DNA from: a virus
Taxonomy: Duplodnaviria > Caudoviricetes
Direction: 5' to 3' (one strand)
Virus record (IMG/VR): IMGVR_UViG_3300027286_000002
Length of the DNA stretch: 64,000 bases
Part shown: piece by piece, positions 44,701 to 62,213 of the stretch
How the letters are laid out: each line of letters opens with the position of its first letter
Position numbering within the stretch: the first letter of the stretch is position 1
Position numbers and translations under genes: made by a program
Notes under the pieces: generated by a model
Seen by the model: the letters and a program-made list of their open reading frames with translations, nothing else
Databases searched by the model: none
Told to the model about the DNA's origin: nothing

Positions 44701-47555
44701 TATTCATTTTCAAAATCAAACTTGCTTTCGTACATCTTAACAAATTCGGTATATCCAATTTCTTTTGCACGACTATCAATCTTTTTTTCTACATTCCCAG
44801 CTAATCCATCTGCTACATCTTCTGTTAAAAACTTTCTCACTTCACTTAAAAAGTTTCCTCTTAAAGCATCAGGACCCACAATTAAAAACTTTGCATCCTT
44901 TTCTTTTTTTGATCCCAATTGCATTGCAGTCACACCTACTAAGGTTTTACCTACACCTGTGTCTAATGCCATCACACCTTTTAAATCATTTGCATCTAAC
45001 CAAGCTAATGCCTCAACTTGCTTATTGTTAAATACAATGTTATCTTTAAATCCACCTATTGATACAGGTTTATATTTTTCTAAATTCTGTGCATTTAATG
45101 CTTTGTCTTTCTGTAAGACAATACCATAATACTTTTCTAATTCTTCATGTGCTTTTCTAGTCATCAAACAAGATCCTAAAGAATCTTTGATTGACTCATA
45201 ATCATCACCATCAAAATAATAAGTTACTCTTGTACCACTAATATTTTCAATTTCTTCAACTGATGCTCTTGTCTTCTTTAAATTCTTTAAAGCACCTCTT
45301 TCACCTTTAAAAGCATCACCTTTTGGTAATGCAATTACAAACCTGCCTTTAAACCATGTGATATATGGTTCTTCCAAAACATTATAATTGATCTTAATAT
45401 CACCACTCTCTACTTTAATACCTTCATAGATATTAATAATTTTACCATTTGCTCCAACAGAATAACATTTATTTTCGCTTGTTAATCTTCCTGTTGCATT
45501 TGCTAAATCTTCCACAGAGAAACCTTTCATTGGTCCCCTTGTGATAATATCTTTAGTAACACCTTTAATAGTAGTAGTCTTTACTTTGACCCAATGTGCA
45601 AATCTTAAAGGATTTGATGCCTTTGGTGTTGTATCATCAGATAATTCTACTTCTCTTTCTTCGCCCGGAAGTGCATCTACTACTGAATCAGGTAAATGAT
45701 CTATCACAATAGGTGGAATATTCATATCCAAATCTTCTGTTAATGGAATAGGATTTCCAATCTCATCAAATTTAAGTGTACCATCTTTTTTGGTTTCATA
45801 TTTAGGTACAGGCTCACCATTTTTAAAAATTACATTTCCTAATTCATCTTTTTCATAAATCACTCTTCTCTTGATATGCTTAAAGATTAATTGCTTTTGT
45901 TGTACTTCTTCACCATTTTGGTTTGTTACTGTAATCGTTCTGATTTCAGGAAAAGCATCTCTTAAAACCTTTGACTTAATTTGGACATCAAATTTCTTTT
46001 GTTGATAAACTTCATATGCAGATAAACCATTTTCGGATTCAATCACACCTAGCTTTTCACTATAAATGGTATGTGCTTTATCTAAAAAGTTCTTTTGTTC
46101 TTCTTTGATAGCTACCTTTAAAGTTTTACCTTTGACAATAGAATTTGGTTTTTCAAGTTCTTTAAGCTGTCCATATAATTGCTTTACTGCTCGCTTATTG
46201 ATTTGCATATCTGAATCAATAATTTCTTTTTCCATATTATATTCATCTAAAACATATTTAAATGAAGGCACATCCACTAAAGACACTAATTTTTCAAACA
46301 TCTCTTTATATGGATCTTGATCAATATCCCAACCTTGACTCAGAAAATAGTTTTGGCAAATTTGAGATAGCTTAAGATTACTATCAATCTTAAATTGCTT
46401 AAATTTTGTGATCAATGGTTTTAAAGATAGACCAATTGGTACAATATTGTTTTTTGCTATCATATATTCCATAAGATTAGCAAAGGTCAAATCCATATCT
46501 GTTTGAGATAAAATCTTTTTAATTACATCTTCTGTTGTACCTACGACTGATGTACTTAATAATTTGGCACTTAACTTCTTTTTAGCTAATTGATCCATTT
46601 TTACTAAGTAATCTTCTTCTTTGACTTCCGACATCGTATCAATGTCTAAATCAACAGGCAAATTCATTGTCTGTAAAAAGTCTAGTTTTCTTTTTTTAAT
46701 AACACCTGCAATCGTAGGCATATTTTTTGGATCATTTAAATATAAATCAAGACGATCACCATCTTCTAATTTAACTTCTGTAAATGCTCCGATTCCTGAT
46801 AACTTAGTCTTTAATTGAGCTTTTTCATACTCAACATATTTCTTCTTAATCGTATTTGCATTTTCTGCAATCACAACAGCAGGTATTGCTCCTGATACTT
46901 CTTTAAACACATCGTATTTTACACCTGTGCTTGTTACTTTTTGTGTGATCTCATATTGCAAACCTTTTGCTTTGCAAATTAAAGCAATCCATCCTGATAA
47001 TGACTTCAAACTTTCTTTGAAAAATGCTTGCTTACCTAAACGATTTGCCACATCAAAAGCACCTGCCATTAAAACAACTTTAGCTTTCTTAAAGACTTCT
47101 TCTTGTGAATTACTTGTTGGATTTCCTTGTCTCACAATGAACTCTAAATATCCTTCCCATACCTTTTGTAAATTCGTTTCAATGAAAGCATCTACTTTTT
47201 GAATATTTACTTTCAAGTCAATCCAAAGGTTTTTCAATTCCTCATCTTGTTCTTTTTCTCTGAAAAATCCCAAATAATACAGATATGCTTTTTCCATATC
47301 TTCATCTAAAGACCACTTAACTAAAGACTTATCTTTCGCTACCTGTGATACTCGATCATTAATATAATCGATTAAGTAATCTTCAAACTCTACCAATTGC
47401 TGGTAGTGATTAAAAACATAATTGCCATTTCCTTCGATCTTGCCTCTAGTAGTATCTCTACTAGACAATTGTGGAACTTTAAAAGCTAATAGAAAATTAG
47501 ATTTAAATGGATTGGCACTGCGATTTGGATTGTTTATCAATTTCACAACAGGCAT
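41709..47555 (-). CDS. Giant SNF2-family helicase fused to a GNAT-like domain (1948 aa)
   Basis: SF2 motifs ALDTGVGKT, IFDEVN, LLTAS, YARGFNLQ and QRTARAFRQGQ; downstream ELVT...IGYYIWPKFGYD resembles GNAT motif B. Confidence 0.75.
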   Translation of the reverse strand: MPVVKLINNPNRSANPFKSNFLLAFKVPQLSSRDTTRGKIEGNGNYVFNHYQQLVEFEDYLIDYINDRVSQVAKDKSLVKWSLDEDMEKAYLYYLGFFREKEQDEELKNLWIDLKVNIQKVDAFIETNLQKVWEGYLEFIVRQGNPTSNSQEEVFKKAKVVLMAGAFDVANRLGKQAFFKESLKSLSGWIALICKAKGLQYEITQKVTSTGVKYDVFKEVSGAIPAVVIAENANTIKKKYVEYEKAQLKTKLSGIGAFTEVKLEDGDRLDLYLNDPKNMPTIAGVIKKRKLDFLQTMNLPVDLDIDTMSEVKEEDYLVKMDQLAKKKLSAKLLSTSVVGTTEDVIKKILSQTDMDLTFANLMEYMIAKNNIVPIGLSLKPLITKFKQFKIDSNLKLSQICQNYFLSQGWDIDQDPYKEMFEKLVSLVDVPSFKYVLDEYNMEKEIIDSDMQINKRAVKQLYGQLKELEKPNSIVKGKTLKVAIKEEQKNFLDKAHTIYSEKLGVIESENGLSAYEVYQQKKFDVQIKSKVLRDAFPEIRTITVTNQNGEEVQQKQLIFKHIKRRVIYEKDELGNVIFKNGEPVPKYETKKDGTLKFDEIGNPIPLTEDLDMNIPPIVIDHLPDSVVDALPGEEREVELSDDTTPKASNPLRFAHWVKVKTTTIKGVTKDIITRGPMKGFSVEDLANATGRLTSENKCYSVGANGKIINIYEGIKVESGDIKINYNVLEEPYITWFKGRFVIALPKGDAFKGERGALKNLKKTRASVEEIENISGTRVTYYFDGDDYESIKDSLGSCLMTRKAHEELEKYYGIVLQKDKALNAQNLEKYKPVSIGGFKDNIVFNNKQVEALAWLDANDLKGVMALDTGVGKTLVGVTAMQLGSKKEKDAKFLIVGPDALRGNFLSEVRKFLTEDVADGLAGNVEKKIDSRAKEIGYTEFVKMYESKFDFENEYYCMIFDEVNEALTGKKAQAISGVKHKRKILLTASALETSPMDLFRFVSLSTGNPIEPAKEKAFADKYAINIGGKFVGIKPEARHQFNIWLKQNAYFADKMDVDYEAVGKKQLKPLVKLNTAVNMPPEVGKAYVEVASGIKNQLKEMKDRYSALLTQNAEDISVTLQKEKDIAVGNLKDKIALLHLFSLNPHKAMAKYNKMKGIEPKTYTFVNPKVEQATALATKFLQESKRTIYFTEDNDVAKQTVISISMRHRTKIHALCLSNMIVFYQAGVPLKKGRATKKTNVENFKINRLTEEQIEAIERERMSKTGAVAKPSVKNMPVDMTWAIKIVKNFIAENDQVVTMVCNSSYARGFNLQKFKAVVHLDRDGWDSEEIKQRTARAFRQGQENEVLEVMVDAVAPNDEKGKPTVSIDELRGLVHETDQKFFNDIIKKSGAIKLSENYSAIEHGVVSDKMTTPNLEEFTRAILPTREASNEIDEYFKNKKEDPVKHTVLDPNRFNHPSIKTILQQLGTTVLTPELKEKLDVSGISGVLNVTPAEITSSVSVPDVKHIRLKGDWIASQIRAVNSDSVKNCEFFTTTCAPKSIGNKALFSQLVACKKAGKKELVTDGGGSFNSFDPETGLGKKGQGHNPMIGYYIWPKFGYDATVLILTLQYPPLQQNFDLVLKFLNPTNLVSPLPAGNDAQSQLVFQEELKNYIEKVEEHNASLKTKAVDVKVDKESVLDLISKLKNPDTKGLNSQQKHQIVTFLRDGAGWWLLKLAKCYYLVSEMTDVYKQQTYSLLDLYAITFTDSEGNVVKAGEELWKFFGSTTKLTLSLDDNSKSYKHLTKYVDAKVKEAGFETLEEYLSAPTDPFDTKSTECWFLFFRDQILTQLTKSEKSTLVKTYMKDLKEVLVKANMNERVAILDSLKMFKENNPELSSMKLASKKYADEDQEVSSESLMGMLAVQDDALFTTITKELENEKTLENTQKEIAVLRGDLKPVLNPFDLSKKGNK

Positions 47556-47624
47556 TTTGCTTATCCTTTGTTTTAAGTGAAAATATGCTCTTTTATAATT
47601 ATGCTTGTAAATATAGATTTAATA

Positions 47625-48005
47625 TTAAATTTTCTCAATCTCATTCGTAATAGATAACTTGTCTGTACGATCCATCATAAACCATTCCACACTCACAGGT
47701 TCAAATTGTGCAAACTTTGCAAACACTGTTTCTTTGTCAAATTCCTTGCATGAATATACATCCAATTGAATTAAGCCGGGCACTGCTTCATCCCACACAT
47801 GAATCGCAATATGTGATGTTTCAATAATAGTCACTGCTGTTAAACCTCTATTGCCTGCCTTGTCAAGATACACAGCATGGGGTCCACTTAAAATCTTCAT
47901 GTCAATCGCTTGGATCAAATCCTTTAACCATGATTCAATCACATCTGTTGCCATAGGTGGCTTATTTACATAAGCACGGATTACAATATGTTGGTGTTGT
48001 AGCAT
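47625..48005 (-). CDS. speD: Pyruvoyl-dependent S-adenosylmethionine decarboxylase-like proenzyme
   Basis: GLTAVTIIETSHIAIHVWDE...LDVYSC matches the class 1b SpeD/SpeH autocleavage signature (x-SH-I-x-I-H-x-W). Confidence 0.85.
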   Translation of the reverse strand: MLQHQHIVIRAYVNKPPMATDVIESWLKDLIQAIDMKILSGPHAVYLDKAGNRGLTAVTIIETSHIAIHVWDEAVPGLIQLDVYSCKEFDKETVFAKFAQFEPVSVEWFMMDRTDKLSITNEIEKI

Positions 48006-48076
48006 TTTACTACGACCTTTCTTTTTCTATTAAAAAAAATGAGTTTTTGCTTTATACAAATTTCTTTTAATCATTA

Positions 48077-48511
48077 TTAAAATTCTAACATCCGAACCAC
48101 TATATATCCCATTCGCCATGCTTGTATTAAATTCCTCTTTACCATACTCACATCACCATCTACACTAAAACACTCAGGACAATCCTTATTCCTAAAATCA
48201 CATTTTACTGTATATGATGGACATCCTTTCTTATCTGCACATACACTATTCTTTATCGGTATTAACTTTAAACATCCTTTCGGATCTCTTAATCCCTGCG
48301 ACTGCATTAATGTTTTCGCATCACCTCTTAATGCTCTGTCTATCACTTCCTCTGATATGACAGGCAATAATCTTTCCCATTCACTATCTTTTAATTCTAT
48401 ATACTCACCCCAATTGTCTACATTCTCTTTTGGTATTATTCTAGCTACCTTTGGATTACCATATCTCTCATCTGTTATCACACAAAAGATCATTCCATTT
48501 TCTCTATACAT
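48077..48511 (-). CDS. Cys-rich hypothetical protein
   Basis: C-x5-C-x6-C-x6-CxxC cluster (CADKKGCPSYTVKCDFRNKDCPEC). Confidence 0.6.
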   Translation of the reverse strand: MYRENGMIFCVITDERYGNPKVARIIPKENVDNWGEYIELKDSEWERLLPVISEEVIDRALRGDAKTLMQSQGLRDPKGCLKLIPIKNSVCADKKGCPSYTVKCDFRNKDCPECFSVDGDVSMVKRNLIQAWRMGYIVVRMLEF

Positions 48512-48513
48512 TT

Positions 48514-48882
48514 TTAATTATATCCTTTTTTCTTATCTTCTATTGCCTTTACTGACTGCTCTACCATGTCTTGATCAAATATATCATGATCTGTGATCTG
48601 CTCTAATACCTTTTTACTTGCACATAAAATATAAGATAAGATTTTGGTTTGACCTTCTTCATTATTCACTATTAACTTATGATGTGGCAAAACATGAAAT
48701 ATATTTAAAAGCTGTCCTATCTTAATCCATACATTTAATAATTCCTGTTCACCTTCAAAATCATTTTGTCCAAAGTAATATGTCTGTGCTAACTGTGATA
48801 TTAAAAACTCAAATCCTTCTTGATTAAATACATCACTCGGTAGTAGTTCTTTATCTTCTTCATTGTTGTCTGTCATTTTCAA
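48514..48882 (-). CDS. Hypothetical protein
   Basis: 122-aa ORF in the replication operon. Confidence 0.6.
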   Translation of the reverse strand: MKMTDNNEEDKELLPSDVFNQEGFEFLISQLAQTYYFGQNDFEGEQELLNVWIKIGQLLNIFHVLPHHKLIVNNEEGQTKILSYILCASKKVLEQITDHDIFDQDMVEQSVKAIEDKKKGYN

Positions 48883-49384
48883 GTTTCCTGTATATCTTTA
48901 TCCATAGTTCAGGTTCTGTCTTTTTGGCAAACAATAAAAAATCTACTGCTTCCCATAACTTTAAACATTCCTTTAAAGATAATACTTTTTCTTTTGTAAT
49001 CCTTGACAACTTATTTATTGTTTTCGCCTGCCAATCAATTTCACTATCTTCTATATCCACATCTTTAAACACATCAGGTTTCTCATATTCCTGCCATTCG
49101 CTTAAACCATATTTCTTTTCTATCATCCTGCAAGCTACATTAAATTCCACACCTTCTTTTTCCATTACTGTTGATACTACATCTCTTACCTTGCCACAAG
49201 CAAAGCAATACCATGTCTTTGTATTATGGTAATATCTTGCACTAGGTTTTGTATCTACACCACTACCATGTAAATCACATGAAAATTGTTGATCAGATCC
49301 ATTCGTTCTTACATTATATCCATAAGCACCTAACACTTGATCTAAAGGTACTTGGTTTTTAATACGATCTGATCTTTTACTCAT
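48860..49384 (-). CDS. Stand-alone CHC2 zinc-finger (primase Zn-binding domain) protein
   Basis: IKNQVPLDQVL...SCDLH...KPSARYY...WYCFACG...DVV..VMEKEGVEF..A is the DnaG CHC2 pattern. Confidence 0.85.
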   Translation of the reverse strand: MSKRSDRIKNQVPLDQVLGAYGYNVRTNGSDQQFSCDLHGSGVDTKPSARYYHNTKTWYCFACGKVRDVVSTVMEKEGVEFNVACRMIEKKYGLSEWQEYEKPDVFKDVDIEDSEIDWQAKTINKLSRITKEKVLSLKECLKLWEAVDFLLFAKKTEPELWIKIYRKLENDRQQ

Positions 49385-49388
49385 TTTT

Positions 49389-50897
49389 CTATATCACATC
49401 TGTTAATGGATCTGCTTTTGCATTACCTGTTAATGGCAATAATGACAAATTATCACTGTTTGTGATTTTACCTGCAGGAAACAAAATGTTTGCATTAAAT
49501 GTAGGAAAGCCTGCTTGATCTCTACTCTTTAAACATTGATACTTAATTTGTTTCTGTTCTCTCACATCATTACCAAACCAATTTGCTATCACTATATCTG
49601 CTGATCGTTCTGCTTCATTTGCATAAGACAAGTGTGTTAATTGATACTCACCATTCTTTTTAAGAGCATCATTATAGCCATCACGACTAATCTGAAATAA
49701 ACATAACACAGGAATACCTTGACCACGATTAAAATTCATTGCCATTCTCTTTAAATCTCTAATGACTTCATTTAATCTTTCTGTGGTTGATCCATATTTA
49801 GTTCTACTTGCTAGTAACAAAGCATGGTCTACTACGATCAAATCTATCTTTTCTTTTTGACTTAATAACTCTGCTTTTGCTCTTAAATCTTCTACTGTGA
49901 AATCAAAGCTATCAGGATTATCTCCTTCTATATGAATTGCTCCATATTCACCATTTTCTCTACATTTCTTTAAATCAGGTACTACATAATTAAAAAAGAA
50001 ATCTTTCTCTTCTGCTGTTAGCTTGCCACCACGAACTTTAGATGGATCAATCCCTTCATATAATTCTACATTAGGTTTCTGTAATCCTAATGCTAAACGA
50101 ATATTCTTAAATTTAGAATGACAAGAATGAATACAATAAATTGATCTTCTTACTTGTGGATAGTGCATTTCTAATGAGAAATATAAAGTATTGGTCTTAT
50201 CCCAAGTAGCTTGTGAATATGCCCAATTTAATGCTGTCTTTGATTTAGCATGACCTGTAAAGCCAGCTAAAATATATAACTCTTTTTTTCTAAATCCACC
50301 TATCGCATCATCTATAATCTTAATACCTGTTGTAGGAATGACTTCTCTACCTGCCTCTTCTGCTTTTTGATATTCTTCTGCAAGGTCTTCTACATCTGTT
50401 AATACTTCACCACCTAGCTTTGATCCAAATGTAGGTGTCATCACTTCTACTAACTTATTAGATAAGAAACGACCTGCATCTCTTGCTCCTTTAAGAATAG
50501 TTTTATGGTTGCCTTTTTCTTTGACTTCTAAACCACTTTTAATAATTGTCTTAACATCTGTAATGGTATTTGACAATTTAATGATACGAGCCTCTTCTAC
50601 AAGGTTTTCAATTTCACTTAGGAAATTACCTTTATAGATAGGTGTAATAGATGCTAATGCACGAACACGATCTGAACATTCAAATTCATTTTGTGTTTCA
50701 AAGTGTTGTGTAATAGTAGCATGATCAGGTAAATGTCCGTGATTTGACATAAAACCTTTTACATAAGACCAAATCGCATTATCTTCTTTTGTTTCAAAGT
50801 TAAAAATGCTTTCTCTTAATGCCATGTAATTCATCTGCATTTGATTAATATCATCACCTAATCTTTGATCAGGCAATATACTTCTTAAAATCTTCAT
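49389..50897 (-). CDS. dnaB: DnaB-like replicative helicase
   Basis: Walker A variant ILAGFTGHAKS, YFSLEM, Walker B IVVDH, CLFQISR and EAERSADIVI. Confidence 0.85.
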   Translation of the reverse strand: MKILRSILPDQRLGDDINQMQMNYMALRESIFNFETKEDNAIWSYVKGFMSNHGHLPDHATITQHFETQNEFECSDRVRALASITPIYKGNFLSEIENLVEEARIIKLSNTITDVKTIIKSGLEVKEKGNHKTILKGARDAGRFLSNKLVEVMTPTFGSKLGGEVLTDVEDLAEEYQKAEEAGREVIPTTGIKIIDDAIGGFRKKELYILAGFTGHAKSKTALNWAYSQATWDKTNTLYFSLEMHYPQVRRSIYCIHSCHSKFKNIRLALGLQKPNVELYEGIDPSKVRGGKLTAEEKDFFFNYVVPDLKKCRENGEYGAIHIEGDNPDSFDFTVEDLRAKAELLSQKEKIDLIVVDHALLLASRTKYGSTTERLNEVIRDLKRMAMNFNRGQGIPVLCLFQISRDGYNDALKKNGEYQLTHLSYANEAERSADIVIANWFGNDVREQKQIKYQCLKSRDQAGFPTFNANILFPAGKITNSDNLSLLPLTGNAKADPLTDVI

Positions 50898-50910
50898 GTT
50901 TTCTTATCTC

Positions 50911-51591
50911 TTAAATTTTAAGTGTTGGTACTTTTTTGTTTTCAACTTCTTGTTGCTCTACAAGTCTTATATTATTCCATCCTAATAATACATCTTCTAC
51001 ACCTCTTGACCATGCAATATGTCCTTCACATAATGGTCTGTTTGGATCAACTACAATCCAAGTAGGTTTATTAAGATGTTGTCTTAATTCTATTGTTTCT
51101 ATTAAGACTTCAGGCATAGCTGAATTTCTTGCCATCTTAACACCTAATCTCACTATTAAAAGACTTGGTGCTTCAGCCATATCTTCTAAACCACGAACTG
51201 TAATTTCTCTAGTGAAATCAGGATCAATAATATCACTTTGTGCTAATGAGATATTAGAAAGCCATGCACTCATTAAATTTGCATCAGATACAACTTTAAT
51301 AAAAAAGCTAGGATTCTTTTCTAAAAAGATTGCTCCTTTCAGATGAGAACATAATTCTGTTTTCTCTGCATGAACAATAATGTTTTCTTTTAGTTTACCT
51401 TTTAAAGGTGTAGCTTTTTTCGCTGGAAATTGACTTAAACCTGTCCAAGCTCTTTCACATTGATTTTTCAAATGTTCTTTTAATACACATGAACATTGAG
51501 CCATGATAGGTTCATTTCTATAATATTGACCACTAGGTACTAAACCTATGCCACCACATTTTTCACAAACTTTAGCCATTGTCTTTTGCAT
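50911..51591 (-). CDS. Putative helicase loader (DnaC/DnaI-like, Zn finger plus degenerate AAA domain)
   Basis: CEKCGGIG...QCSC Zn finger; LLIVRLG...LIETIELR...KPTWI resembles DnaC; adjacent to the helicase; no intact Walker A. An alternative ATG lies at 51579. Confidence 0.5.
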   Translation of the reverse strand: MQKTMAKVCEKCGGIGLVPSGQYYRNEPIMAQCSCVLKEHLKNQCERAWTGLSQFPAKKATPLKGKLKENIIVHAEKTELCSHLKGAIFLEKNPSFFIKVVSDANLMSAWLSNISLAQSDIIDPDFTREITVRGLEDMAEAPSLLIVRLGVKMARNSAMPEVLIETIELRQHLNKPTWIVVDPNRPLCEGHIAWSRGVEDVLLGWNNIRLVEQQEVENKKVPTLKI

Positions 51592-53170
51592 CCTCTAGTA
51601 AGCCATTGAAAATATCTTTGAGTTCTGTATCAGATACTCCTTCTATCTTATCTGATTCTTCATCGTTTTTCAGTCTTTTACCTAAAACATTTTCAATTAA
51701 ATCCATTTTACTTGCTAAGGCTTTCATTACACGATCATCAATAGTCTTTGGACAAACTAAATGATAACAAAATACACGATCATGAATACTACCGATACGA
51801 ATCATTCTACCAATGATTTGAAGATAATCACCTGCACTCCATGGGGAGTCATAAAAGATAACTGCTTTAGCTAACTGTAAATTAATACCTTCTGCCGCCG
51901 CCATTGTAATCAAGACGACCTTTACATCAGAATTTTCATCTTGAAATGCCTCTTGTGATTTCTTTCTCTCATCATCCTTTTCACCACCTGTAATTCTTAC
52001 ACTCTTAATTTTCTTTGCTGTTAGTTCTCTTTCCAAAACATCTATCATCTTCCTAAACCTTGAAAAGATAATTACCTTTTCTCCATCTAGTTCATCTTCT
52101 AGTAACTCAAATAAAGCATCCATTTTGCCACTATCACCTGTCGCATCTACAAGTTCTAAATGGTTTACAATCTGTTGACAATACATAACTGCTGTGAGTT
52201 TTGTTACTTCCTTTTGTTTGATCTCACCTGATTCAGCATCATATTTTTCTAATAGACCACTTAATGCTTCTTTATATTTTGATCTTTGTTGATCAGATAA
52301 TTCACATTCAATTCTCTTAGTAGTCAATGGTGGCAATTCACTCGCTACTTCATGTTTTGGTCTACCTACAAAGAAAGGATCAATCTTTTCTTTAAATGCT
52401 TCAATATCAGATTTCCTATGACCTACTACAAACTTAATTCTCTTTCTACCTATTTGCTTATCTACACATACACAGTAATTAGACATGAATACATTCTTGC
52501 TAGGCATAAGTCCGGGGACAGTTACTTTATAGATTGCCCATGCTTCCATAAGTCTATTTTTAATAATAGTAGCTGATAAAGACCATACCTTTTCTGCACT
52601 ACCAGATAAATGAGAACAAACTTGATGGATTTGAGAAGTATCGTTTTTAAAAGCAGTTGCCTCGTCAAAGACCATAACATTACCTGTGATAGGTTGAATA
52701 ATATCAAAATCAATCACACCTGTTCTATAACCTAAAATAAGAACTTTAGTAGTAGTACAGGCAAAGTAAGCATCATAAACCTTTTGTCTTTTCTTTTTAT
52801 CTCCACTGACAACAAAACAAGAGATACTACCATTGGTAAATTTCTCAAATTCACTTGCCCATTGGTTTAGAGCAGATTTAGTAGTCATAATGACAGCAGG
52901 CATATCAGGTCTTTTTTCCCATACATAGCATAGAGATGCTATGGTTTGAATCGTTTTACCTAACCCCGTGTCATCGCCAAGTACAAATCGTGGCATTGCA
53001 AGTAAATGCAGAATGCCTTGTAATTGATAGTTTCTTAATGTTAAAGGTTTGCCATTTGCCAAATGAGTTCTCAAGAATGAGTTTGCAGGCATTTTGATTT
53101 CTTGTTTAACACGAACTTCTCTTAATTTTTCAATAGTAGCAAGTAGCTTTGGATCTTTTAAATAATTCAT
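51572..53170 (-). CDS. SNF2-family helicase
   Basis: LRNYQ, LGDDTGLGKT, VFDEA, LSAT, AAAEGINLQ and QIIGRMIRIG; start revised to ATG 53170. Confidence 0.9.
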   Translation of the reverse strand: MNYLKDPKLLATIEKLREVRVKQEIKMPANSFLRTHLANGKPLTLRNYQLQGILHLLAMPRFVLGDDTGLGKTIQTIASLCYVWEKRPDMPAVIMTTKSALNQWASEFEKFTNGSISCFVVSGDKKKRQKVYDAYFACTTTKVLILGYRTGVIDFDIIQPITGNVMVFDEATAFKNDTSQIHQVCSHLSGSAEKVWSLSATIIKNRLMEAWAIYKVTVPGLMPSKNVFMSNYCVCVDKQIGRKRIKFVVGHRKSDIEAFKEKIDPFFVGRPKHEVASELPPLTTKRIECELSDQQRSKYKEALSGLLEKYDAESGEIKQKEVTKLTAVMYCQQIVNHLELVDATGDSGKMDALFELLEDELDGEKVIIFSRFRKMIDVLERELTAKKIKSVRITGGEKDDERKKSQEAFQDENSDVKVVLITMAAAEGINLQLAKAVIFYDSPWSAGDYLQIIGRMIRIGSIHDRVFCYHLVCPKTIDDRVMKALASKMDLIENVLGKRLKNDEESDKIEGVSDTELKDIFNGLLEDAKDNG

Positions 53171-53242
53171 TTTTAAGTAGTCATCTTTCAAAGTGATAAT
53201 GAATGATCTACTTATAAGATATTTATCTATGCTTTACATCTA

Positions 53243-53689
53243 TTAAAGCACTTGTTTTTTTACAACACCTGTCATTGGTTTCCAAGTCAAAATAATATTA
53301 AACAGGATAGCATATTCAGTAGCTAGTGGTCTATTAGAATGTAAAAGTTTAAATGTTTGTTCTTGAATATAATCTGACTTGATATTAATTTGTTTTTGTT
53401 TTTCTTTAAGCCATGTTTTTTGAATCCATTTAATAATTTTACGAACAGCTGTGATTGCTCTTAAATAGATATCACCTGTATAGACAGGTTTTCTCTTAAT
53501 AGTACCATATTTAAGTTTAGCTATTCTAGTTAGCATAATATATGCTTGTGTTTGCTCGGATTTACCAACCTTTCTTTTAATAAAGAAGTACCAAGCAACA
53601 TTTGCTGAATCGGCATCACGACCAAAAAACTCTAAAATAAACTTAAACAGTTCATCTGTTTCAACATCTGTAAATTTAAAAATATCCAT
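53243..53689 (-). CDS. Hypothetical basic protein
   Basis: 148-aa ORF coupled to 53691..54155. Confidence 0.55.
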   Translation of the reverse strand: MDIFKFTDVETDELFKFILEFFGRDADSANVAWYFFIKRKVGKSEQTQAYIMLTRIAKLKYGTIKRKPVYTGDIYLRAITAVRKIIKWIQKTWLKEKQKQINIKSDYIQEQTFKLLHSNRPLATEYAILFNIILTWKPMTGVVKKQVL

Positions 53690-53690
53690 T

Positions 53691-54155
53691 TTAACCTACC
53701 ATCCTTAGTCCAAGTTTGTTAATAAGTCTAATGTATAAATTCTTTACTTCGATTGCGACTTCTTTGCTTTTTGGATGATCTGCTTGATCTAAAGCACCTT
53801 CCCAATCACCTGCTAATAAAAGTTGAATGACTACATCACCATTCATTGGTTCATGAATCATGATCTTATTTCTTCTTTTTTCATTTAGAATTGTAGCAAT
53901 AATTCTATCTCTTGCTTGTTTTACTCTTGCACTATGCTTTTGAATATTGCCTATCAATATTCTACAGGTTTCATTTGATGCCATCTTAATAGCTGTATCA
54001 TAATCATTTGCCATTAAGACATCTACAATCTTTGGATCATCAAACTTTTCAATCGTAGCATATATATCTAATAAGGTTGCTATATTGTCTTCAGCATTTC
54101 TTGTAGGTAAAGAATGTGTTGAATATCCACCATAGGCTTTTTCTGATCTGTTCAT
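53691..54155 (-). CDS. Hypothetical protein
   Basis: 154-aa ORF with AAGGAG SD. Confidence 0.6.
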   Translation of the reverse strand: MNRSEKAYGGYSTHSLPTRNAEDNIATLLDIYATIEKFDDPKIVDVLMANDYDTAIKMASNETCRILIGNIQKHSARVKQARDRIIATILNEKRRNKIMIHEPMNGDVVIQLLLAGDWEGALDQADHPKSKEVAIEVKNLYIRLINKLGLRMVG

Positions 54156-54251
54156 TTTAAAACTCCTTTATGCAAAAGTAGTTTTCAATAAATATTTTAT
54201 TATTTTCTTAAGTATTAAATACTCTAATTTCAGAAAAAAGGATAGATCACC

Positions 54252-55025
54252 ATGTCTAAGAATCCAGATCAAAATCCACAAAATGTGGGTGGCTTTGATA
54301 TGCAAGGTACTAGCGAACTTTACAAATTTAATACATCACCAAATACTCGTGTTGCTCTTTCTCAAAAGGTAAGAATCCTAGCACCTACTTATGGTAAAAC
54401 AGGACAAACTGCTTTAAAGAAATATCAGTTAGGTGTTGTAGAAACTTTTTCTTATGAAGGTAATAGTAGATCTACAGAAGCTAGAAGAGGTATTGGTTTT
54501 GGTGATCAGATTGCAGAACTTGTACCCGGGCTCACTGATCCACCAACCATTTCTTTCACTCGTGCTTTATTTTATTTATCTAATGCTTTCCAAACGATTG
54601 GTTTTGCAGGTGGTGTAGACGGACCCGTAAGAAGTGTTAAGCATACTCGCTGGCCCTTTGATGTTGAAGAACAACTTGTGTTTAGTGATATTGCAGATAA
54701 TGAATCAGATGGTACAGATGGCAATACATATACTCAAGGTATTGTTAATGTAGATTACTCTGCTCAAAATGTTACTGAACCTGATGTCTCAGCATTTAGA
54801 TATTCTAAAAAAGTACACAAAGCTATTTTAACTTATTTTGAAACCTGTTGGTTGCACTCTATTGATCACTCTGTTGATATTAGTTCTGCACATATTATGG
54901 AAAATGTTGCTTGTGGTGTTACAGATGTACACGATGGTCTTTCTACTTATGGTGAGTTCTTATCTACAGGTAATAATCCTTATCTTGGTCAAGTTGCATC
55001 TAAACGATTCCCTGCATCTCGTTGA
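54252..55025 (+). CDS. Tail tube protein
   Basis: First gene of the tube-chaperone-tape measure block; LGVVETF...RRGIGFGDQIAELVPG...TISFTR...WPFD...YFETCW is tube-like. Confidence 0.7.
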   Translation: MSKNPDQNPQNVGGFDMQGTSELYKFNTSPNTRVALSQKVRILAPTYGKTGQTALKKYQLGVVETFSYEGNSRSTEARRGIGFGDQIAELVPGLTDPPTISFTRALFYLSNAFQTIGFAGGVDGPVRSVKHTRWPFDVEEQLVFSDIADNESDGTDGNTYTQGIVNVDYSAQNVTEPDVSAFRYSKKVHKAILTYFETCWLHSIDHSVDISSAHIMENVACGVTDVHDGLSTYGEFLSTGNNPYLGQVASKRFPASR

Positions 55026-55075
55026 TAATTTTATTGTATGATATAGATGACGATCTATAAAGGGAGAATATAAAT

Positions 55076-55681
55076 ATGTTTTTAAATGAAATCGCATCTG
55101 CATTTGATGATCTTATTAAAATTGGTAATCTCGAAAGACAAGTTACTATTGGCAATATTTCTTTAGTGCTTAAAACACTCACACCAGCTGATGAAATTGA
55201 AATCCAAAAAGTCATTAGTGCTTTTAGAAATGATGATACACTCGCAGTTGAGTTTATTGATGTGTTTAGAAAAGAAACTCTTTCAAGAGCAATCATTGAA
55301 GTGAATGGTAAAAATCTAAGAAATCTCACAGTCATTGAAACTGAAGAAAATTTAGATAATGGTGTTTCCATTAAGATCACCAAACAAGAAGCTATTATGA
55401 AAATGCTTGATAAATTACCTAAAGGTATTCTTGCACACCTGTTTAATGAAATGACTGCTTTAACAGAGCAATCTGAAAAACAAGTGGAAAGTTTATTGCA
55501 GGTTAAAGAAAAAGATAATCTTGTTGAGGCAGATTTATTAGAAAATAGAGCAAATACTTTAAGACAACAAGAAATTCAGAAAAAGAATGAAGAAAAGACC
55601 AAGCAAAGTTTGGCAACTTTAAATAATATTAAGCAACCAAATTTTAGTGATGCTTTAAAGGAAATCGGATCTGTTGAATAA
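55076..55681 (+). CDS. Tail assembly chaperone
   Basis: Lies between tube and tape measure; LVLKTLTPADEIEI...LSRAIIEVNG resembles T4 gp26-type chaperone/hub-assembly proteins. Confidence 0.55.
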   Translation: MFLNEIASAFDDLIKIGNLERQVTIGNISLVLKTLTPADEIEIQKVISAFRNDDTLAVEFIDVFRKETLSRAIIEVNGKNLRNLTVIETEENLDNGVSIKITKQEAIMKMLDKLPKGILAHLFNEMTALTEQSEKQVESLLQVKEKDNLVEADLLENRANTLRQQEIQKKNEEKTKQSLATLNNIKQPNFSDALKEIGSVE

Positions 55682-55683
55682 AA

Positions 55684-56742
55684 ATGATAGATCATTATCA
55701 AGATTTAAGACAAGTCATTGAATATGGCTTTCTTTCTTTTAAAATACTTATCAATCACAGATATATTACTTTCAGATCACCATCTCTTAAAGATTTTGAA
55801 TTGATGGAATCTTATTCTTTAAGATCTGTAAGAGATATTATTCTTATCGCAAGGTGTATCTATTCTATTGGTTATGTCAAAATCAATCAAGACAGAGATT
55901 TCTATCAAATGATAGAATTTTGTAAAACCATTCCTATGTCATGTTTTAATAAGATTGTGCTTTATATATATGCAATCACTAATCGTTTAAGAAATGCAGG
56001 TATTTTACTTGAAGGATTTTGCTATGAAACTGAATCAAGACAGCTTTGGAAAACTTGGATGTCTAAAAATAGATTTCAAAAAGAAGTATCTGATGGTGCT
56101 TTTGATACTTTGCAACTCGCTTGGATTATATGGAATGAAAGTGAAGATTTAAAAGCTATAGAAGATTCACATTGGCAAAGGTCATTATTTGTAGCTAGTG
56201 CTATGGCATCAGGTGTAGATAAAATTAAAGCCAAATGGAAAAATCAAGAAGAATTGGAAAACAAGAGAAGAGAAGAAGTAAAGAAATATGCTCGCATGGG
56301 AAAACCTATGCCTAAAGATGCTAAAGGAGCTGTCCTAGATCAAAATGAAAAATTGATTGAAGAAATGAGAAGGTGGTTAGCTGGTGAAGAAGATGAACAT
56401 GATAAAGTGATTAGAGAACATAAAGAATTTATGAAAGAGCAAATCACTAAAGCTAAAACCTATGCAGAAGAACAAAGACAAATTGCTATTGAGAAAAAGG
56501 AAGAAATACAAGCTATACCATTGGTTGGTTATTCCTTAGATGATATAAAACAAAAGACAGGTGGAATAACACAATCAACAACAATAGGTGTGCATTTAAG
56601 TAAAGACAATGAAAAAGTATTAAATAAAATTATGGCAGATGCTCTTGTACCTGAGCCTTTAAATCCTGAACAAGATTCAATTTTCAATCAATCAAAAACA
56701 TCATTAATGGATAAAATTACACAAAGGCAACCAAAGATATAG
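55684..56742 (+). CDS. Second tail assembly chaperone-like protein
   Basis: Assigned by position immediately before the tape measure gene. Confidence 0.45.
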   Translation: MIDHYQDLRQVIEYGFLSFKILINHRYITFRSPSLKDFELMESYSLRSVRDIILIARCIYSIGYVKINQDRDFYQMIEFCKTIPMSCFNKIVLYIYAITNRLRNAGILLEGFCYETESRQLWKTWMSKNRFQKEVSDGAFDTLQLAWIIWNESEDLKAIEDSHWQRSLFVASAMASGVDKIKAKWKNQEELENKRREEVKKYARMGKPMPKDAKGAVLDQNEKLIEEMRRWLAGEEDEHDKVIREHKEFMKEQITKAKTYAEEQRQIAIEKKEEIQAIPLVGYSLDDIKQKTGGITQSTTIGVHLSKDNEKVLNKIMADALVPEPLNPEQDSIFNQSKTSLMDKITQRQPKI

Positions 56743-56751
56743 GTAAAGAAC

Positions 56752-59700
56752 ATGGCAATTCCAAAGATGCAAATGACAATGGATCAGCTGAAAGATCTAA
56801 CCAAAAAAATTTCTGATACCGATAAAAGTCTTTTAGGTGTGATGAATACTATTGTGCATCAAGCAGAACTTGTGAAAAAAGCATCTGCTAATTTTAATGA
56901 TACTCTTGCTAAAGTGAATAGTAGAACTTTAGGTGATTATGAAGCTCAAAAGAAAAAACTAAAAGAAATCAATAAAATCAATAAGGATTTCCAAAAATCC
57001 GAAATGGAAATTTTAAATAATATCAAAAACCTTCAAGCAGTAGGATCTAAAGAATCAAGAAAACAAATCATTGAACAAAGACTTGAATTAAAGAATTTAC
57101 AAAAAGAACATGAAAAAATGTTTAATACTCAAAGGAGAGCATATGAAGAAATTGCCAAACAGAATTTAAAGATCATTAAAGACTTTGAAGATGGTATTGA
57201 AGAAATTAATCAAAATTTAGATAGTGCTTTTAAAGATGGAAATCTTTTCAAACAAATTTCTTCAATAGGTAGCGAATTACAAGAAGTTATAGAAACTGCT
57301 ATGGATGGTGGTATTGCAGGAATGGAAAAAATCCTATCATCTTCTTTAGGTGGCATCACTAAAGTCTTTCAAATAAGAGCATTAAAACTAGCTGAACAAG
57401 GTAAAAAAGATTTAGCTAGAATTACTGAATTAAAAAAAAGAGGTGCTAAATCAGGTGGTTCATCCGATGATGATAAAGAACTTACTACATTAGAATCAAG
57501 TAGAGTTAGTTCTGAAAAAGATGCTACAGGTATGTTAGCTATGAGTAAAGGTATGCAGATGCTTTCTGTAGGTGTAATGGGTGTTGTCACTGCCTTTAAA
57601 ATGATGATTGATGCTGAATCTAAAGTTAAAGAATTTAATAAAGATATGTTGAACGATGCAGGTGGTTCTTTATCTTTTCTTAAACATAGTCAAGAAGGTT
57701 TAGCTAGTAGTTTAAATACCTATCGTGAAGGTTTTGCTAAAATGGCAAACACTGTAGGTATGAAAGCTGATGAGATCAAATCTCAATTTATTGCTCTACA
57801 AGACACTACTTTCTTCAATAAAGAAACACTTAAAGATTTTGATGGTTTTGAAAGAGCATTTAAAACACTATCTACTTATTCTAAAGGTCTTGGTCTTTCT
57901 ATTTCTGAAACAACAGAAATTGCTGAATCTTTTGTTGATAGTATGGCTATCGATACATCTACACAAGATGGTATGGAAACTTTATCTTCTGCTTTTCAAA
58001 GTATTGGTTTCTTTGCAAGCAAATCTAATATCTCTACCAAAGCATTTACCAACCAGCTTAAAGAGGCTAATGCTAAATCTACTAGCTTTAATAAGTCTAT
58101 TGTTCAAACTGCATCTGTTATGTTTAAAGTTAATAAAGCATTAGGTGCAAATCGAGCAAAAGACTTCTTTGAAGGATTTGAGGATCAAAAAGAAAAAGAA
58201 TATGCAGATCTTATTAAAAACCTTGCAATGGCTGGAGGTCCCGCAAGCGAAACGATGCAAAAAATTATGCGACAAAATGCTATTACAAGTGCAGGTGGTC
58301 TTCAAAAAGCAATTAGCAGTGATGAAGAAAAAAAAGCATTTGAAAAAGCATCTAAAGAATCAGGTTTAAATCTCGATCTCACTAAAAGTAATGAAGAAAT
58401 TATGACACAATTACAAGGTGTTGATCTAACAAGCGATGCTTTTGTTAAATTCATAAGTACTTTAGAAGATTCAGGTATTGGTAATGCCTCTGCTTTAATT
58501 GAAAAAGTACAAGCAGGTGTTAGATCTGCTCAAGGTGTTGGTAAAGATAAAGGATTTGAAGAACAATCATTAGCTTTAAGAGAACTTTCTATGGGTGGTC
58601 AATATGCAATGAAATTTGCTGAAGCAAAAGCTATTATTGAAACAGGTGCAGGTAAAGGTAAAACAATTAGTCAATTAGATGAAAAAGTTTTAGAAACAGT
58701 TAAAACTGCTCTCAAAGGTCAAGGCAAAACTGAAAAAGAAATCAATACTTTAATTTCTTTAGATCAAAGAGCAAGAGGTGATTTTAGCAAAGCACAAGAA
58801 ATCCAAGCTAAATATGCAAGTGCTAGTGCTGAGGACAAACAAAAAATGGATGAAGATTTAGCTAAAATGGGTTTAATGATGAATGCTCAAGGTGAACTTG
58901 TTACTAAAAATACACAGCAACTCGTTAAATCTACTGAAGATATGTATGTCGCAACAGGTGAAATTTTTAGTGAGGAACAAAAAGCAAGAGAACCTAAAGT
59001 TAAATCTGAACAGGATCTTATGAAAGATCAAATAGATGCTACTTGGGGTATGGGTGATCGTCTTGAAGCTACCTTCGGTGTTTATCTTGAACAGCTTAAT
59101 ACTTATGTTGCTAAAATCTTATCTTATATTTCATCTTGGTTTGGCACTCAAACAAATCAAGAAATGAAAACTCAACAAAGACTACAAGAAGAAAAAATTG
59201 ACCAACAAAAGCGATACGATAAACAAATTAAAGAAGAAACAGATAAAATCGCTCAACTTAAAAAGACAGGTGGCAGTGCAGATGAAGTTGCGAAAAGTGA
59301 AAAAAGAATTGCTGAACTTTCTAAACTTAAAGAATCTAGTCAAAGCGAACTAGAACTTCTACAAAAAGGTGCTACTTTATTAGGAAATAAAAAACAACAA
59401 GAACTCCAACTTGCTACTACTAAAAGAGATGTTGCTAGTAAAGCATTTGGTGCTGGCACAGCAGGTGCTAAATTAGGTGCTTTAAAAGAAAGTTTAGGCA
59501 AATCTACAGATCAAGAAGTTTTAGATTTATTAGATGAAATGAGAGATATTTATGAAAACAAAGATGATGAAGATGCTACTGAAGAAGAATTAAAAAAACT
59601 TGCTGACTTTGAAGAAAAAGTTAAAGCATCAGGTCTACAATTACAACTCGATTCTACTTTAGGTACTGAATATGCTAAAATCTTTGATGATCAAGGTAGA

Positions 59701-60522: not shown

Positions 60523-60544
60523 TAGAAAGAAAGGATATGTTTAA

Positions 60545-61141
60545 ATGCCTAGCTTAAATGATCTTAATAATGGATCAGGTGTTAGACCTGTCATTTTTGA
60601 TATTGTTGCTCCTGATGGATACACTTCTCTCTTAAATGATGGTCAATCTGATCTTAGACTTGTTCTTCAAGTCAATCCATCCAATCTTAAATTCTCTTAC
60701 ACTAAAAAAATCACTCGTACTCAAACCTTTGGTGGATTTATTGAAACTCATTGGGGCGATGAACCTATCACCACTAATATCGAAACTGCTACAGGTGGTT
60801 TTATCCGTGTAGGTACAGGTACATCTGCTATCACAGGTGCTGTTCCTAGTGTAGGTGGTTCTAATTTAGATACAGGTACTCGAATGGATACTCTTGCCTA
60901 TGATAAATATTTAGATTTCCTTGCTCTATTCCATAACAATGGTGCTTTATATGATGCCTTTGGCAATATTGTTGTGCATGGTAGAATTAAAATGTCTTTT
61001 AATGGTGGTACATGGTTTGGTTGGTTTCAAACCTTTACTGTTACTGATAGTATTGAAACTCCATATAGCTTTGCTTTAAGTGCAGGCTTTCAAATCGAAA
61101 GAGAAGTACATGAAATCCGAACTCAAATGGGAGGTTTTTAA
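60545..61141 (+). CDS. Tail tube initiator/baseplate hub-like protein
   Basis: LQVNPSNLKFSYTKKITRTQTFGGFIETHWG; paralogous to the next gene; follows the tape measure gene. Confidence 0.55.
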   Translation: MPSLNDLNNGSGVRPVIFDIVAPDGYTSLLNDGQSDLRLVLQVNPSNLKFSYTKKITRTQTFGGFIETHWGDEPITTNIETATGGFIRVGTGTSAITGAVPSVGGSNLDTGTRMDTLAYDKYLDFLALFHNNGALYDAFGNIVVHGRIKMSFNGGTWFGWFQTFTVTDSIETPYSFALSAGFQIEREVHEIRTQMGGF

Positions 61142-61144
61142 AAT

Positions 61145-62212: not shown

Positions 62213-62213
62213 C

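What the first reader, a model, noticed from the sequence alone, without database searches (positions are those of the whole stretch)
51893..51904. Ala-Ala almost erased from the proteome; the one forced AAA uses GCG GCG GCA (GCWGC/GCNGC avoidance)
Any Ala-Ala pair creates GCNGC. Reading the real ORFs, I found no AA dipeptide in the Ala-rich 1256-aa tape measure, the 1948-aa helicase or the 1714-aa tail protein. The only case found is MAAAEG in SNF2 motif V, coded ATG GCG GCG GCA. GCG is otherwise very rare here, and this choice gives GCGGC rather than GCWGC. I also saw no gcagc/gctgc in other frames. Inference: selection against a GCWGC or GCNGC restriction site (TseI/Fnu4HI-type specificity) has been strong enough to change amino-acid sequences.
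Basis: partly seen in the sequence, partly recalled or inferred. Interest (0 to 1): 0.75.

Follow-up and report, generated by a model that had tools for sequence, protein, structure and literature searches.

The report
Restriction-word purge erases Ala-Ala pairs
A giant freshwater phage has removed the 5-letter DNA word GCWGC (and more than twenty other restriction-enzyme-like words) so thoroughly that the amino-acid pair Ala-Ala survives only at a few essential protein motifs, which suggests that host DNA-cutting defences can reshape protein sequences and not only silent codon choice.

Summary
The window has 0 GCWGC sites (55-60 expected). The whole 196-kb phage record has 1 (about 156 expected).

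- **Ala-Ala counts:** 2 in the window (67 expected) and 13 in the record (201 expected). Twelve of the 13 use the rare GCC or GCG as first codon.
- **The target is GCWGC, not GCNGC:** GCSGC occurs 12 times against 6.5-15 expected.
- **Why Ala-Ala vanishes:** about 92% of potential GCWGC sites are Ala-Ala codon pairs. The only silent escape (GCS GCN) needs CpG and the word CCGC/GCGG, which is itself 4-fold depleted.
- **Other purged words:** GCWGC is one of more than 20 (CCWGG, GGCC, ACGT, GCGC, RCATGY, ATGCAT and others). Pro-Gly, Gly-Pro and Trp-Pro are depleted in the same way.
- **Relatives:** sister phages of equal GC content that tolerate GCWGC keep Ala-Ala at 0.5-0.8 of expectation, written with GCA/GCT. 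Across 56 related loci, Ala-Ala observed/expected tracks GCWGC observed/expected (rho 0.83).

The host and the enzyme are unknown, so restriction is inferred, not shown.

The scan has reported this before: on this genome (e1-5320831, e1-5320856) and on three other genomes (e1-5351561, e1-5363286, e1-5326816). It is an extreme, protein-level form of a known strategy.

The parts
51893..51904 (-). ATG GCG GCG GCA = Met-Ala-Ala-Ala of SNF2 motif V. It holds the only Ala-Ala pairs and the only GCSGC words (51894, 51897) in the window.
   Evidence: MAAAEG is invariant in 14 diverse relatives. GCWGC-tolerant relatives G002 and G003 spell it GCT GCA GCT. G000 and G001 spell it GCG GCG/GCC GCA.
51572..53191 (-). 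SNF2-family helicase gene (539 aa).
   Evidence: Pfam SNF2-rel_dom 3.6e-38 and Helicase_C 2.1e-24.
1..64000 (.). The whole window is free of GCWGC, CCWGG, ACGT, GCGC, RCATGY, ATGCAT, AAGCTT and GAATTC.
   Evidence: For example GCWGC 0 against 55-60, ACGT 0 against about 29-42 sites, ATGCAT 0, AAGCTT 0.
56752..60522 (+). It has no Ala-Ala.
   Evidence: 0 observed against 8.8 expected. No Pfam family.
41709..47555 (-). 1948-aa helicase-domain protein with no Ala-Ala.
   Evidence: 0 observed against 7.5 expected. ResIII/Helicase_C.
22684..27828 (+). It has no Ala-Ala.
   Evidence: 0 observed against 7.1 expected.
42778..42781 (-). One of only two GGCC words in the window. It is forced by Trp-Pro (TGG CCN).
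   Evidence: context IWPK. The other is 54652-54655 (+), context RWPF.
52512..52516 (-). Example of a Pro-Gly spelled CCS GGN (CCSGG), which avoids CCWGG. All 9 Pro-Gly pairs in the window use CCC or CCG.
   Evidence: Genome-wide, 29 of 29 PG use CCS, although CCS is 5% of Pro codons.

Best explanation
Selection acts on the DNA word GCWGC. Most likely it comes from host Type II restriction enzymes of TseI/ApeKI specificity, or of BbvI type (GCAGC), cutting unmethylated incoming phage DNA. This selection has removed every copy but one.

In this AT-rich genome, 91% of Ala codons are GCA or GCT. About 92% of all potential GCWGC sites are therefore Ala-Ala codon pairs. Of the 14 single-base changes that destroy such a site, 12 change an amino acid. 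The 2 silent changes give GCS GCN.

The stable outcome is that Ala-Ala is replaced by Ser-Ala, Ala-Ser, Ala-Gly and similar pairs wherever the protein tolerates it. It is kept, spelled GCS GCN, only in constrained motifs.

What is shown:
- the word purge;
- its independence from reading frame;
- the codon switch;
- the net loss of AA relative to orthologs;
- the link across relatives.

What is inferred: that the selecting agent is a restriction enzyme of the unknown host.
For: 1. Size of the purge: GCWGC 1 against 156-159 in 196 kb. Codon-order shuffling gives 217 +/- 15, of which 201 lie in the Ala-Ala frame. Synonymous shuffling gives 26.6 +/- 3.8.
2. DNA-level selection: the two other reading frames hold 0 sites against about 16 expected under synonymous shuffling.
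3. Codon switch: 12 of 13 AA use GCS first, although GCS is 9% of Ala codons. In G001 it is 31 of 31.
4. Specificity: GCSGC 12 against 6.5-14.8. CCGC/GCGG is at 0.26 of a CpG-aware expectation.
5. Same logic for other words: CCWGG 1/141 with PG 29/125, all spelled CCS GGN. GGCC 6/99 with WP 4/24. GP 34/125. In the window every GGWCC is an in-frame Gly-Pro and both GGCC are Trp-Pro.
6. Relatives: G002-G004 have the same 33% GC but GCWGC at 45/31, 32/36 and 48/45. Their AA is 0.54-0.83 of expectation and is spelled GCW GCN. L076 has a GCS share of 0.12, tolerates GCWGC, and has AA 29/27.
7. Directional loss: against G002-G004, AA is kept 4, lost 28, gained 2 (p = 9e-7). Against G001, PG is kept 26, lost 19, gained 1 (p = 4e-5). 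All 26 kept PG are CCW in G001 and CCS here.
8. Across 56 distinct related loci, AA O/E against GCWGC O/E gives Spearman 0.83. The simple model (GCS share + GCW share x GCWGC O/E) gives Pearson 0.87 and slope 1.09. PG against CCWGG gives Spearman 0.88.
9. The set of purged words differs between G000 and G001 at 75% aa identity: ACTGG 3/192 against 414/339, GATATC 31/87 against 0/152. This fits changing host enzymes.
10. Remaining AA sit in core proteins: large terminase ATPase, major head protein, UvrD Walker A, SNF2 motif V.
11. The sequence recurs in at least 20 riverine or lake runs, so it is not an assembly artefact.
Against: - No host is known, and no cognate GCWGC nuclease or methylase has been identified.
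- More than 20 purged words is a lot for one host strain. It implies a host population with many enzymes, or a broad host range.
- The strictly phylogeny-controlled test has only 6-7 independent contrasts. AA moves the expected way in about 4.5 of them and never the other way, but the median p is 0.06.
- Tolerant sisters still have AA at only 0.5-0.8 of expectation, so part of the deficit may be older or have another cause.
- G004 tolerates GCWGC yet spells the motif-V AAA as GCG GCG GCA.
- One GCWGC (G000:22346, GCA GCG in WAAIG) is stably kept in contigs of four runs, including a diverged strain.
Confidence: 0.82

Rival explanations
1. Self-compatibility. The phage or its relatives encode sequence-specific nucleases that degrade host DNA, and the phage genome lacks those words so that it does not cut itself.
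For: A word purge alone cannot tell who owns the nuclease. The record is only 63% complete by CheckV, so unseen genes exist.
Against: No restriction-endonuclease family appears among the 55 window ORFs (Pfam and PADLOC). The only nuclease-like hit is a 114-aa T5orf172/MUG113 ORF. More than 20 distinct words would need many nucleases. The word sets differ between G000 and G001 at 75% aa identity. G001 tolerates cytosine-containing words and carries five C5 methyltransferases, which is the pattern expected for defence against foreign enzymes.
Confidence: 0.07
2. Mutational decay. GCWGC and CCWGG are methylated at cytosine, and 5-methylcytosine deamination (C to T) erodes the words without selection against cutting.
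For: CpG is at 0.28 of expectation. C5 methyltransferases exist in the sister genome G001.
Against: The one-step neighbours in excess are not the transition products in particular. GCAGG (3.05), GCACC (2.86) and GCATC (1.97) exceed GCAAC/GTTGC (1.08), and they match Ala-Gly, Ala-Pro and Ala-Ser replacements. The loss is near total (1 of 156), whereas decay leaves a floor. AA at constrained motifs is kept by a switch to rare GCS codons (12/13, and 31/31 in G001), which is a mark of selection. No PF00145 gene lies in the 196 kb held.
Confidence: 0.03
3. A protein-level or translation-level cause: Ala-Ala is disfavoured in these proteins, or the GCW-GCN codon pair is translated badly.
For: Dipeptide and codon-pair biases exist in all proteomes. 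Tolerant sisters also have AA below 1 (0.5-0.8).
Against: GCWGC is also absent from the two reading frames that do not encode Ala-Ala (0 against about 16), and on both strands. Orthologs at 50% identity with the same GC content carry AA spelled GCW GCN. The same pattern holds for unrelated dipeptides that force other restriction-like words (PG, GP, WP).
Confidence: 0.02
4. GCWGC is avoided for another DNA-level reason, for example as the target of a non-restriction defence or of a host DNA-binding protein, or as the substrate of a modification-dependent enzyme of BisI type (GCNGC).
For: The host is unknown. BisI-family enzymes act on methylated GCNGC (PMC4926085, PMC11347163; listed).
Against: GCSGC is not avoided, which does not fit a GCNGC reader. 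GCWGC falls in one group with many classic Type II palindromes that are purged together (ACGT, GGCC, GCGC, ATGCAT, AAGCTT, GAATTC, RCATGY).
Confidence: 0.05

Closest known systems
Restriction-site (short palindrome) avoidance in virulent dsDNA phages. Sharp 1986, Karlin 1992 and Rocha 2001 as cited in PMC8410138; Rusinov et al. 2018, PMC6286503.
   Same: Short, mostly palindromic words that match Type II specificities are depleted far below composition-aware expectation. The set differs between related phages.
   Different: The purge covers more than 20 words at once and is near total. It reaches the limit of the genetic code: four dipeptides (AA, PG, GP, WP) that force such words are stripped from a proteome of about 62,000 aa. 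Rusinov et al. do not mention amino acids, codons or dipeptides at all. The review PMC8410138 treats avoidance as a matter of synonymous changes.
Escape of phage lambda from EcoRI by synonymous point mutations (Pleska and Guet 2017, as described in PMC8410138).
   Same: Each site removed raises the chance of escape, and all sites removed gives full escape. This is the selective logic assumed here.
   Different: There the changes are silent and engineered. Here most of the removal (about 190 of about 217 potential sites) is non-synonymous and natural.
TseI/ApeKI (G^CWGC) and BbvI (GCAGC) restriction systems, and GCWGC methylation in freshwater bacteria (M.AbaBS3I, m4C, Lake Biwa Chloroflexi; PMC6329791, PMC3643589).
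   Same: The purged word equals their recognition word. GCWGC-modifying systems are documented in freshwater plankton.
   Different: No link between these organisms and this phage was tested. The other two motifs of those Chloroflexi do not fit well: GANTC is only half depleted and TTAA is not depleted here.
Phage self-methylation as the alternative anti-restriction route (multispecific phage methyltransferases).
   Same: The sister genome G001 carries five C5 methyltransferases and tolerates CCWGG, CTGCAG, GGCC and GCGC better than G000 does.
   Different: For GCWGC both genomes rely on avoidance. The specificities of the G001 enzymes could not be assigned.

Membership tests
Restriction-site avoidance in phage genomes | Short words that match known Type II recognition sequences are depleted against composition-aware nulls. 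| tested here: met
   GCWGC 1/156, CCWGG 1/141, ACGT 0/89, GGCC 6/99, GCGC 0/27, RCATGY 0/203, ATGCAT 0/143, AAGCTT 3/121, GAATTC 1/57. Shuffle nulls.
Restriction-site avoidance in phage genomes | Depletion acts on DNA: it does not depend on reading frame or strand. | tested here: met
   GCWGC in the two non-Ala-Ala frames: 0 against about 16 under synonymous shuffling. Counts cover both strands.
Restriction-site avoidance in phage genomes | The set of avoided words varies among related phages, as host enzyme sets vary. | tested here: met
   G000 against G001 against G002-G004. At least 7 changes of GCWGC-avoider state on the SNF2 tree of 64 loci.
Restriction-site avoidance in phage genomes | The host carries restriction enzymes of the avoided specificities. 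| not testable with these tools
   Host unknown. The phage is known only from riverine and lake metagenomes.
Restriction-site avoidance in phage genomes | Adding sites lowers plating efficiency on the restricting host. | not testable with these tools
   Uncultured phage.
GCNGC (Fnu4HI-type) target, as opposed to GCWGC (TseI/ApeKI/BbvI-type) | GCSGC is depleted as strongly as GCWGC. | tested here: not met
   GCSGC 12 against 6.5 (order 2) to 14.8 (order 1). GCWGC 1 against 156-159. G001: GCSGC 34 against 10.
Methylation-driven deamination decay (CpG-type depletion) | Excess of the C-to-T / G-to-A products of the lost word over other neighbours. | tested here: not met
   Transversion neighbours GCAGG (3.05) and GCACC (2.86) exceed transition neighbours GCAAC/GTTGC (1.08), GTAGC/GCTAC (1.75) and GCAGT/ACTGC (1.56).
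Genetic-code-forced dipeptide loss | Dipeptides whose every codon pair contains a purged or costly word are the most depleted, and their survivors use the least costly spelling. | tested here: met
   In one search's ranking of the most depleted pairs, AA 0.06, PG 0.23 and GP 0.27 are the top three, and WP 0.17 has the second-lowest ratio. Spellings: AA 12/13 GCS-first, PG 29/29 CCS-first, GP 33/34 GGW-first.

The most novel reading that the evidence does not exclude
In a whole clade of freshwater jumbo phages, the proteome frequency of Ala-Ala and Pro-Gly is set quantitatively by restriction-word avoidance. AA observed/expected is roughly the share of Ala codons ending in C or G, plus the remaining share times GCWGC observed/expected.

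If so, phage protein sequences carry a readable imprint of the restriction repertoire of their hosts. Gain or loss of phage cytosine methyltransferases (G001 against G000) would then decide whether a word is methylated or purged. Restriction pressure would be a measurable constraint on protein sequence space, not only on silent sites.
Probability: 0.5. Interest if true: 0.75.

Novelty: new variant of a known kind. Interest (0 to 1): 0.6.

Why it matters
Restriction avoidance is usually described as a matter of silent codon choice. Here it overrides protein-level preference across about 62,000 residues.

- A common dipeptide drops to 6% of expectation and survives only in essential motifs, written in rare codons.
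- This gives a natural measure of how strong and how long-lasting restriction pressure can be.
- It may allow host restriction specificities to be read from uncultured phage proteomes (AA, PG, GP, WP deficits and their codon spellings).
- It is a warning for homology and composition-based methods, which assume that dipeptide frequencies reflect protein constraints only.
- The G000/G001 pair, which differs in purged words and in methyltransferase content at 75% identity, is a ready-made case for studying the trade-off between methylating and purging.

Tried and rejected
- **Megablast of 20 kb against GenBank phages:** no match. The closest record by protein is an uncultured 485-kb phage at 55% identity.
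- **Specificities of the five C5 methyltransferases of G001:** a search of solved structures matched only the catalytic half (M.HaeIII, M.HhaI), or nothing. No specificity can be given.
- **Phylogenetically independent pairs:**
  - 31 loci: 4 pairs, p 0.125 at best.
  - 64 loci: 6-7 pairs, median p 0.06 for GCWGC/AA and 0.5 for CCWGG/PG.
  - The direction never reverses, but the test is under-powered.
- **Pfam on the ORF that holds the single GCWGC:** no family.
- **Literature searches for dipeptide or amino-acid effects of restriction avoidance:** no such paper in the held library. This does not prove that none exists.
- **GCNGC as the target:** rejected.
- **Deamination decay:** rejected.
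- **Host prediction:** not attempted beyond noting the habitat.
- **The genome search with the pattern GCWGC:** Counts were made by script instead.

Full report
**The observation**

The + strand at 51893-51904 reads tgccgccgccat. This is the reverse complement of ATG GCG GCG GCA. It encodes M430-A431-A432-A433 of a 539-aa SNF2 helicase (ORF 51572-53191, minus strand; Pfam SNF2-rel_dom 3.6e-38 and Helicase_C 2.1e-24).

The window (32% GC) holds no GCAGC or GCTGC on either strand. It holds GCSGC only at this spot. Markov models of order 1 to 3 expect 55-60 GCWGC sites.

In 55 non-overlapping ORFs (19,689 aa, Ala 5.8%), Ala-Ala occurs twice, both inside this AAA, against 66.9 expected. It is the most depleted of all 400 dipeptides.

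GCG is 3.5% of Ala codons.

**The whole record**

The window is bases 84765-148764 (minus strand) of a 195,689-bp IMG/VR virus record. CheckV rates it 63% complete.

- GCWGC occurs once against 156-159 expected.
- AA occurs 13 times against 201 expected in 61,603 aa.
- Twelve of the 13 AA use GCC or GCG as first codon, although these make up 9% of Ala codons.
- The thirteenth (GCA GCG, in WAAIG of ORF 21566-22891) is the single GCWGC of the record.

Two shuffle nulls split the effect.

| Null | What is kept | GCWGC expected | Detail |
|---|---|---|---|
| Codon-order shuffle within genes | each gene's codons | 217 +/- 15 | 201 sites lie in the Ala-Ala frame |
| Synonymous shuffle | the proteins | 26.6 +/- 3.8 | about 16 sites in the two other frames, where none is observed |

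The selection therefore acts on DNA, in all frames. About nine tenths of the removal had to be made, and was made, at the level of amino acids.

**Which word is the target**

GCSGC is not depleted once CpG scarcity is allowed for: 12 sites against 6.5 (order 2) to 14.8 (order 1). The target is GCWGC, not GCNGC. A palindromic TseI/ApeKI-type reader and an asymmetric BbvI-type reader (GCAGC) give the same word set and cannot be told apart.

Why is AA not simply recoded?
- CpG is at 0.28 of expectation.
- CCGC/GCGG lies inside every GCSGC and is at 0.26 of a CpG-aware expectation.
- Of the 14 single-base changes that destroy an Ala-Ala-borne GCWGC, 12 are non-synonymous. This is my own count from the genetic code.
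This is an inference.

**Not one word but many**

Also purged are CCWGG 1/141, ACGT 0/89, GGCC 6/99, GCGC 0/27, RCATGY 0/203, ATGCAT 0/143, AAGCTT 3/121, GAATTC 1/57, TTCGAA 1/42, GGTACC 0/30, ACTGG 3/192 and others. GATC and TTAA are not purged.

Dipeptides that force such words are the next most depleted:
- PG 29/125. All 29 are spelled CCS GGN, although CCS is 5% of Pro codons.
- GP 34/125. Of these, 33 are spelled GGW CCN.
- WP 4/24. TGG CCN always contains GGCC.

In the window, all 11 GGWCC words are in-frame Gly-Pro. Both GGCC words are Trp-Pro. The in-ORF CCSGG words are Pro-Gly. What remains of these words is what the genetic code forces.

**Relatives**

A scan of IMG/VR with the helicase gave 31 loci, and 67 with a profile. 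Four contigs were fetched whole.

| Genome | Relation to G000 | GCWGC obs/exp | AA obs/exp | Spelling of AA |
|---|---|---|---|---|
| G001 (316 kb, complete) | 75% mean aa identity, collinear with G000 over its 102-304 kb | 1/160 | 31/292 | all 31 GCS-first |
| G002 | about 50% aa identity, same 33% GC | 45/31 | 44/53 | GCA or GCT first |
| G003 | about 50% aa identity, same 33% GC | 32/36 | 30/56 | GCA or GCT first |
| G004 | about 50% aa identity, same 33% GC | 48/45 | 54/89 | GCA or GCT first |

Sources.

At the invariant MAAAEG motif, G002 and G003 read GCT GCA GCT. G000 and G001 read GCG GCG/GCC GCA.

In reciprocal-best orthologs against G002-G004:
- AA is kept at 4 positions, present only in the relatives at 28, and present only here at 2 (p = 9e-7). 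This is the strongest asymmetry of all dipeptides. PG comes second (10/22/1).
- The residues found here in place of AA are mostly SA, AS, AG, PA, GA and FA. One Ala is kept and the other is changed by a single base.

**A recent case in the same genome**

G001 tolerates CCWGG (91/152) and G000 does not (1/141).
- Of 45 aligned PG pairs in G001, all spelled CCW GGN, 26 are kept in G000. All 26 are respelled CCS GGN.
- The other 19 are replaced, mostly by one-base changes (PA, AG, PV and others).
- Only 1 PG is unique to G000 (p = 4e-5).

G001 also carries five C5 methyltransferase genes. Two lie at loci syntenic with G000 where G000 has none. Their specificities could not be assigned.

Other words are purged in only one of the two genomes: ACTGG and CCAGA in G000, GATATC and CAATTG in G001. 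This turnover at 75% identity fits changing host enzymes.

**Across the clade**

On 56 distinct loci:
- AA O/E follows GCWGC O/E (Spearman 0.83).
- AA O/E follows the simple expectation, GCS share + GCW share x GCWGC O/E (Pearson 0.87, slope 1.09).
- PG follows CCWGG (Spearman 0.88).

L076 has a GCS share as low as ours (0.12). It tolerates GCWGC and has AA 29/27, so a low GCS share alone does not remove AA. L080 has CCWGG 0/42 and PG 0/17.

The avoider state changes at least 7 times on the helicase tree. In 6-7 independent pairs, AA goes the expected way in about 4.5 and never the other way. The sign test reaches only about 0.06. The cross-lineage support is therefore consistent but not formally significant once relatedness is controlled.

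**Rivals**

- **Deamination decay** is not supported. The neighbours in excess are GCAGG, GCACC and GCATC (Ala-Gly, Ala-Pro, Ala-Ser), not specifically the transition products.
- **A protein or translation cause** is contradicted by the empty out-of-frame positions.
- **A phage-encoded nuclease** cannot be excluded, because the record is incomplete. However, the window holds no restriction-enzyme family, and the number and turnover of the words argue for foreign enzymes.
- **An assembly artefact** is excluded. The stretch recurs at 88-100% of sampled words in 20 riverine, lake and freshwater runs.

The single GCWGC is present in contigs of four runs, including a strain with a change at the adjacent base.

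**Where AA survives**

The remaining AA sit in:
- the large terminase ATPase region;
- the major head protein (two);
- the UvrD-type helicase Walker A (AAGAGSGK);
- SNF2 motif V;
- a DUF5824 protein;
- an intein-bearing protein.

Ten of the 13 are shared with G001. The first codon's third base often differs there (C against G) but is always S, except at the one GCA. This indicates long-lasting selection at that base.

**Known or new**

Restriction avoidance has been known since the 1980s. It is reviewed as acting through synonymous change (PMC8410138). The largest survey does not mention codons, amino acids or dipeptides (PMC6286503). Five searches of the held library found no report of a dipeptide being stripped from a proteome. 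GCWGC methylation does occur in freshwater bacteria (PMC6329791).

The scan itself has already reported the same effect: on this genome (e1-5320831, e1-5320856) and on three other genomes (e1-5351561, e1-5363286, e1-5326816). I rate it a new, extreme variant of a known strategy. It is real and well supported at the sequence level. The selecting enzyme and the host remain to be found.

Noticed in passing
window 30725-31069 (+); G001:C1:179736-180881: Between the NAD-ligase gene and the next ORF, the sister genome G001 has a C5 cytosine methyltransferase. This window has a 114-aa T5orf172/MUG113 (GIY-YIG-like) ORF there instead.
   Followed up: partly
G000:C1:76288-76992 and G001:C1:231418-232182: At one syntenic locus G000 has an N6_N4 methyltransferase and G001 has a C5 methyltransferase. 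This looks like a swappable methyltransferase slot. G000:25794-26204 is a second N6_N4 match interrupted by two TAA codons.
   Followed up: partly
whole records G000 and G001: Some words are purged in only one of two genomes that share 75% aa identity. ACTGG 3/192 against 414/339. CCAGA 36/308 against 518/560. GATATC 31/87 against 0/152. CAATTG 44/74 against 0/141. CCGG 31/17 against 5/22.
   Followed up: partly
whole record G000: ACGC/GCGT occurs once against about 153 expected (two-strand count). I cannot name a Type II specificity for this non-palindromic 4-mer. CpG overall is at 0.28 of expectation, but ACGA/TCGT and GCGA/TCGC are twice the CpG-aware expectation.
   Followed up: no
L080 (IMGVR_UViG_3300046167_000825, 71247-92809): A distant relative with CCWGG 0/42 and Pro-Gly 0/17. 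The same effect on another dipeptide, taken to completion.
   Followed up: no
G003:C1:16247-19837: Four tandem N6_N4 methyltransferase genes in a relative that tolerates GCWGC. One may protect that word.
   Followed up: no
window 47625-48005 (-): A 126-aa ORF matches S-adenosylmethionine decarboxylase (PF02675, 7e-13). This is a possible SAM-consuming function in a phage under heavy restriction pressure.
   Followed up: no
G000:C1:22346-22350 (L062 1047-1051): The only GCWGC of the record (GCA GCG in IIDGHHRWAAIG). It is kept in contigs of four runs, including a strain with G>C at the next base. G001 spells the same pair GCG GCC.
   Followed up: yes
G000 against G001 orthologs: Leu-Glu shows the strongest dipeptide asymmetry between the two genomes (122 only in G001, 65 only in G000; p = 4e-5). 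I have no word-level explanation for it.
   Followed up: no
G000:C1:44316-45668: A 450-aa ORF with an intein-splicing-domain match below Pfam's cut-off (2e-07). It holds two of the surviving Ala-Ala pairs.
   Followed up: no
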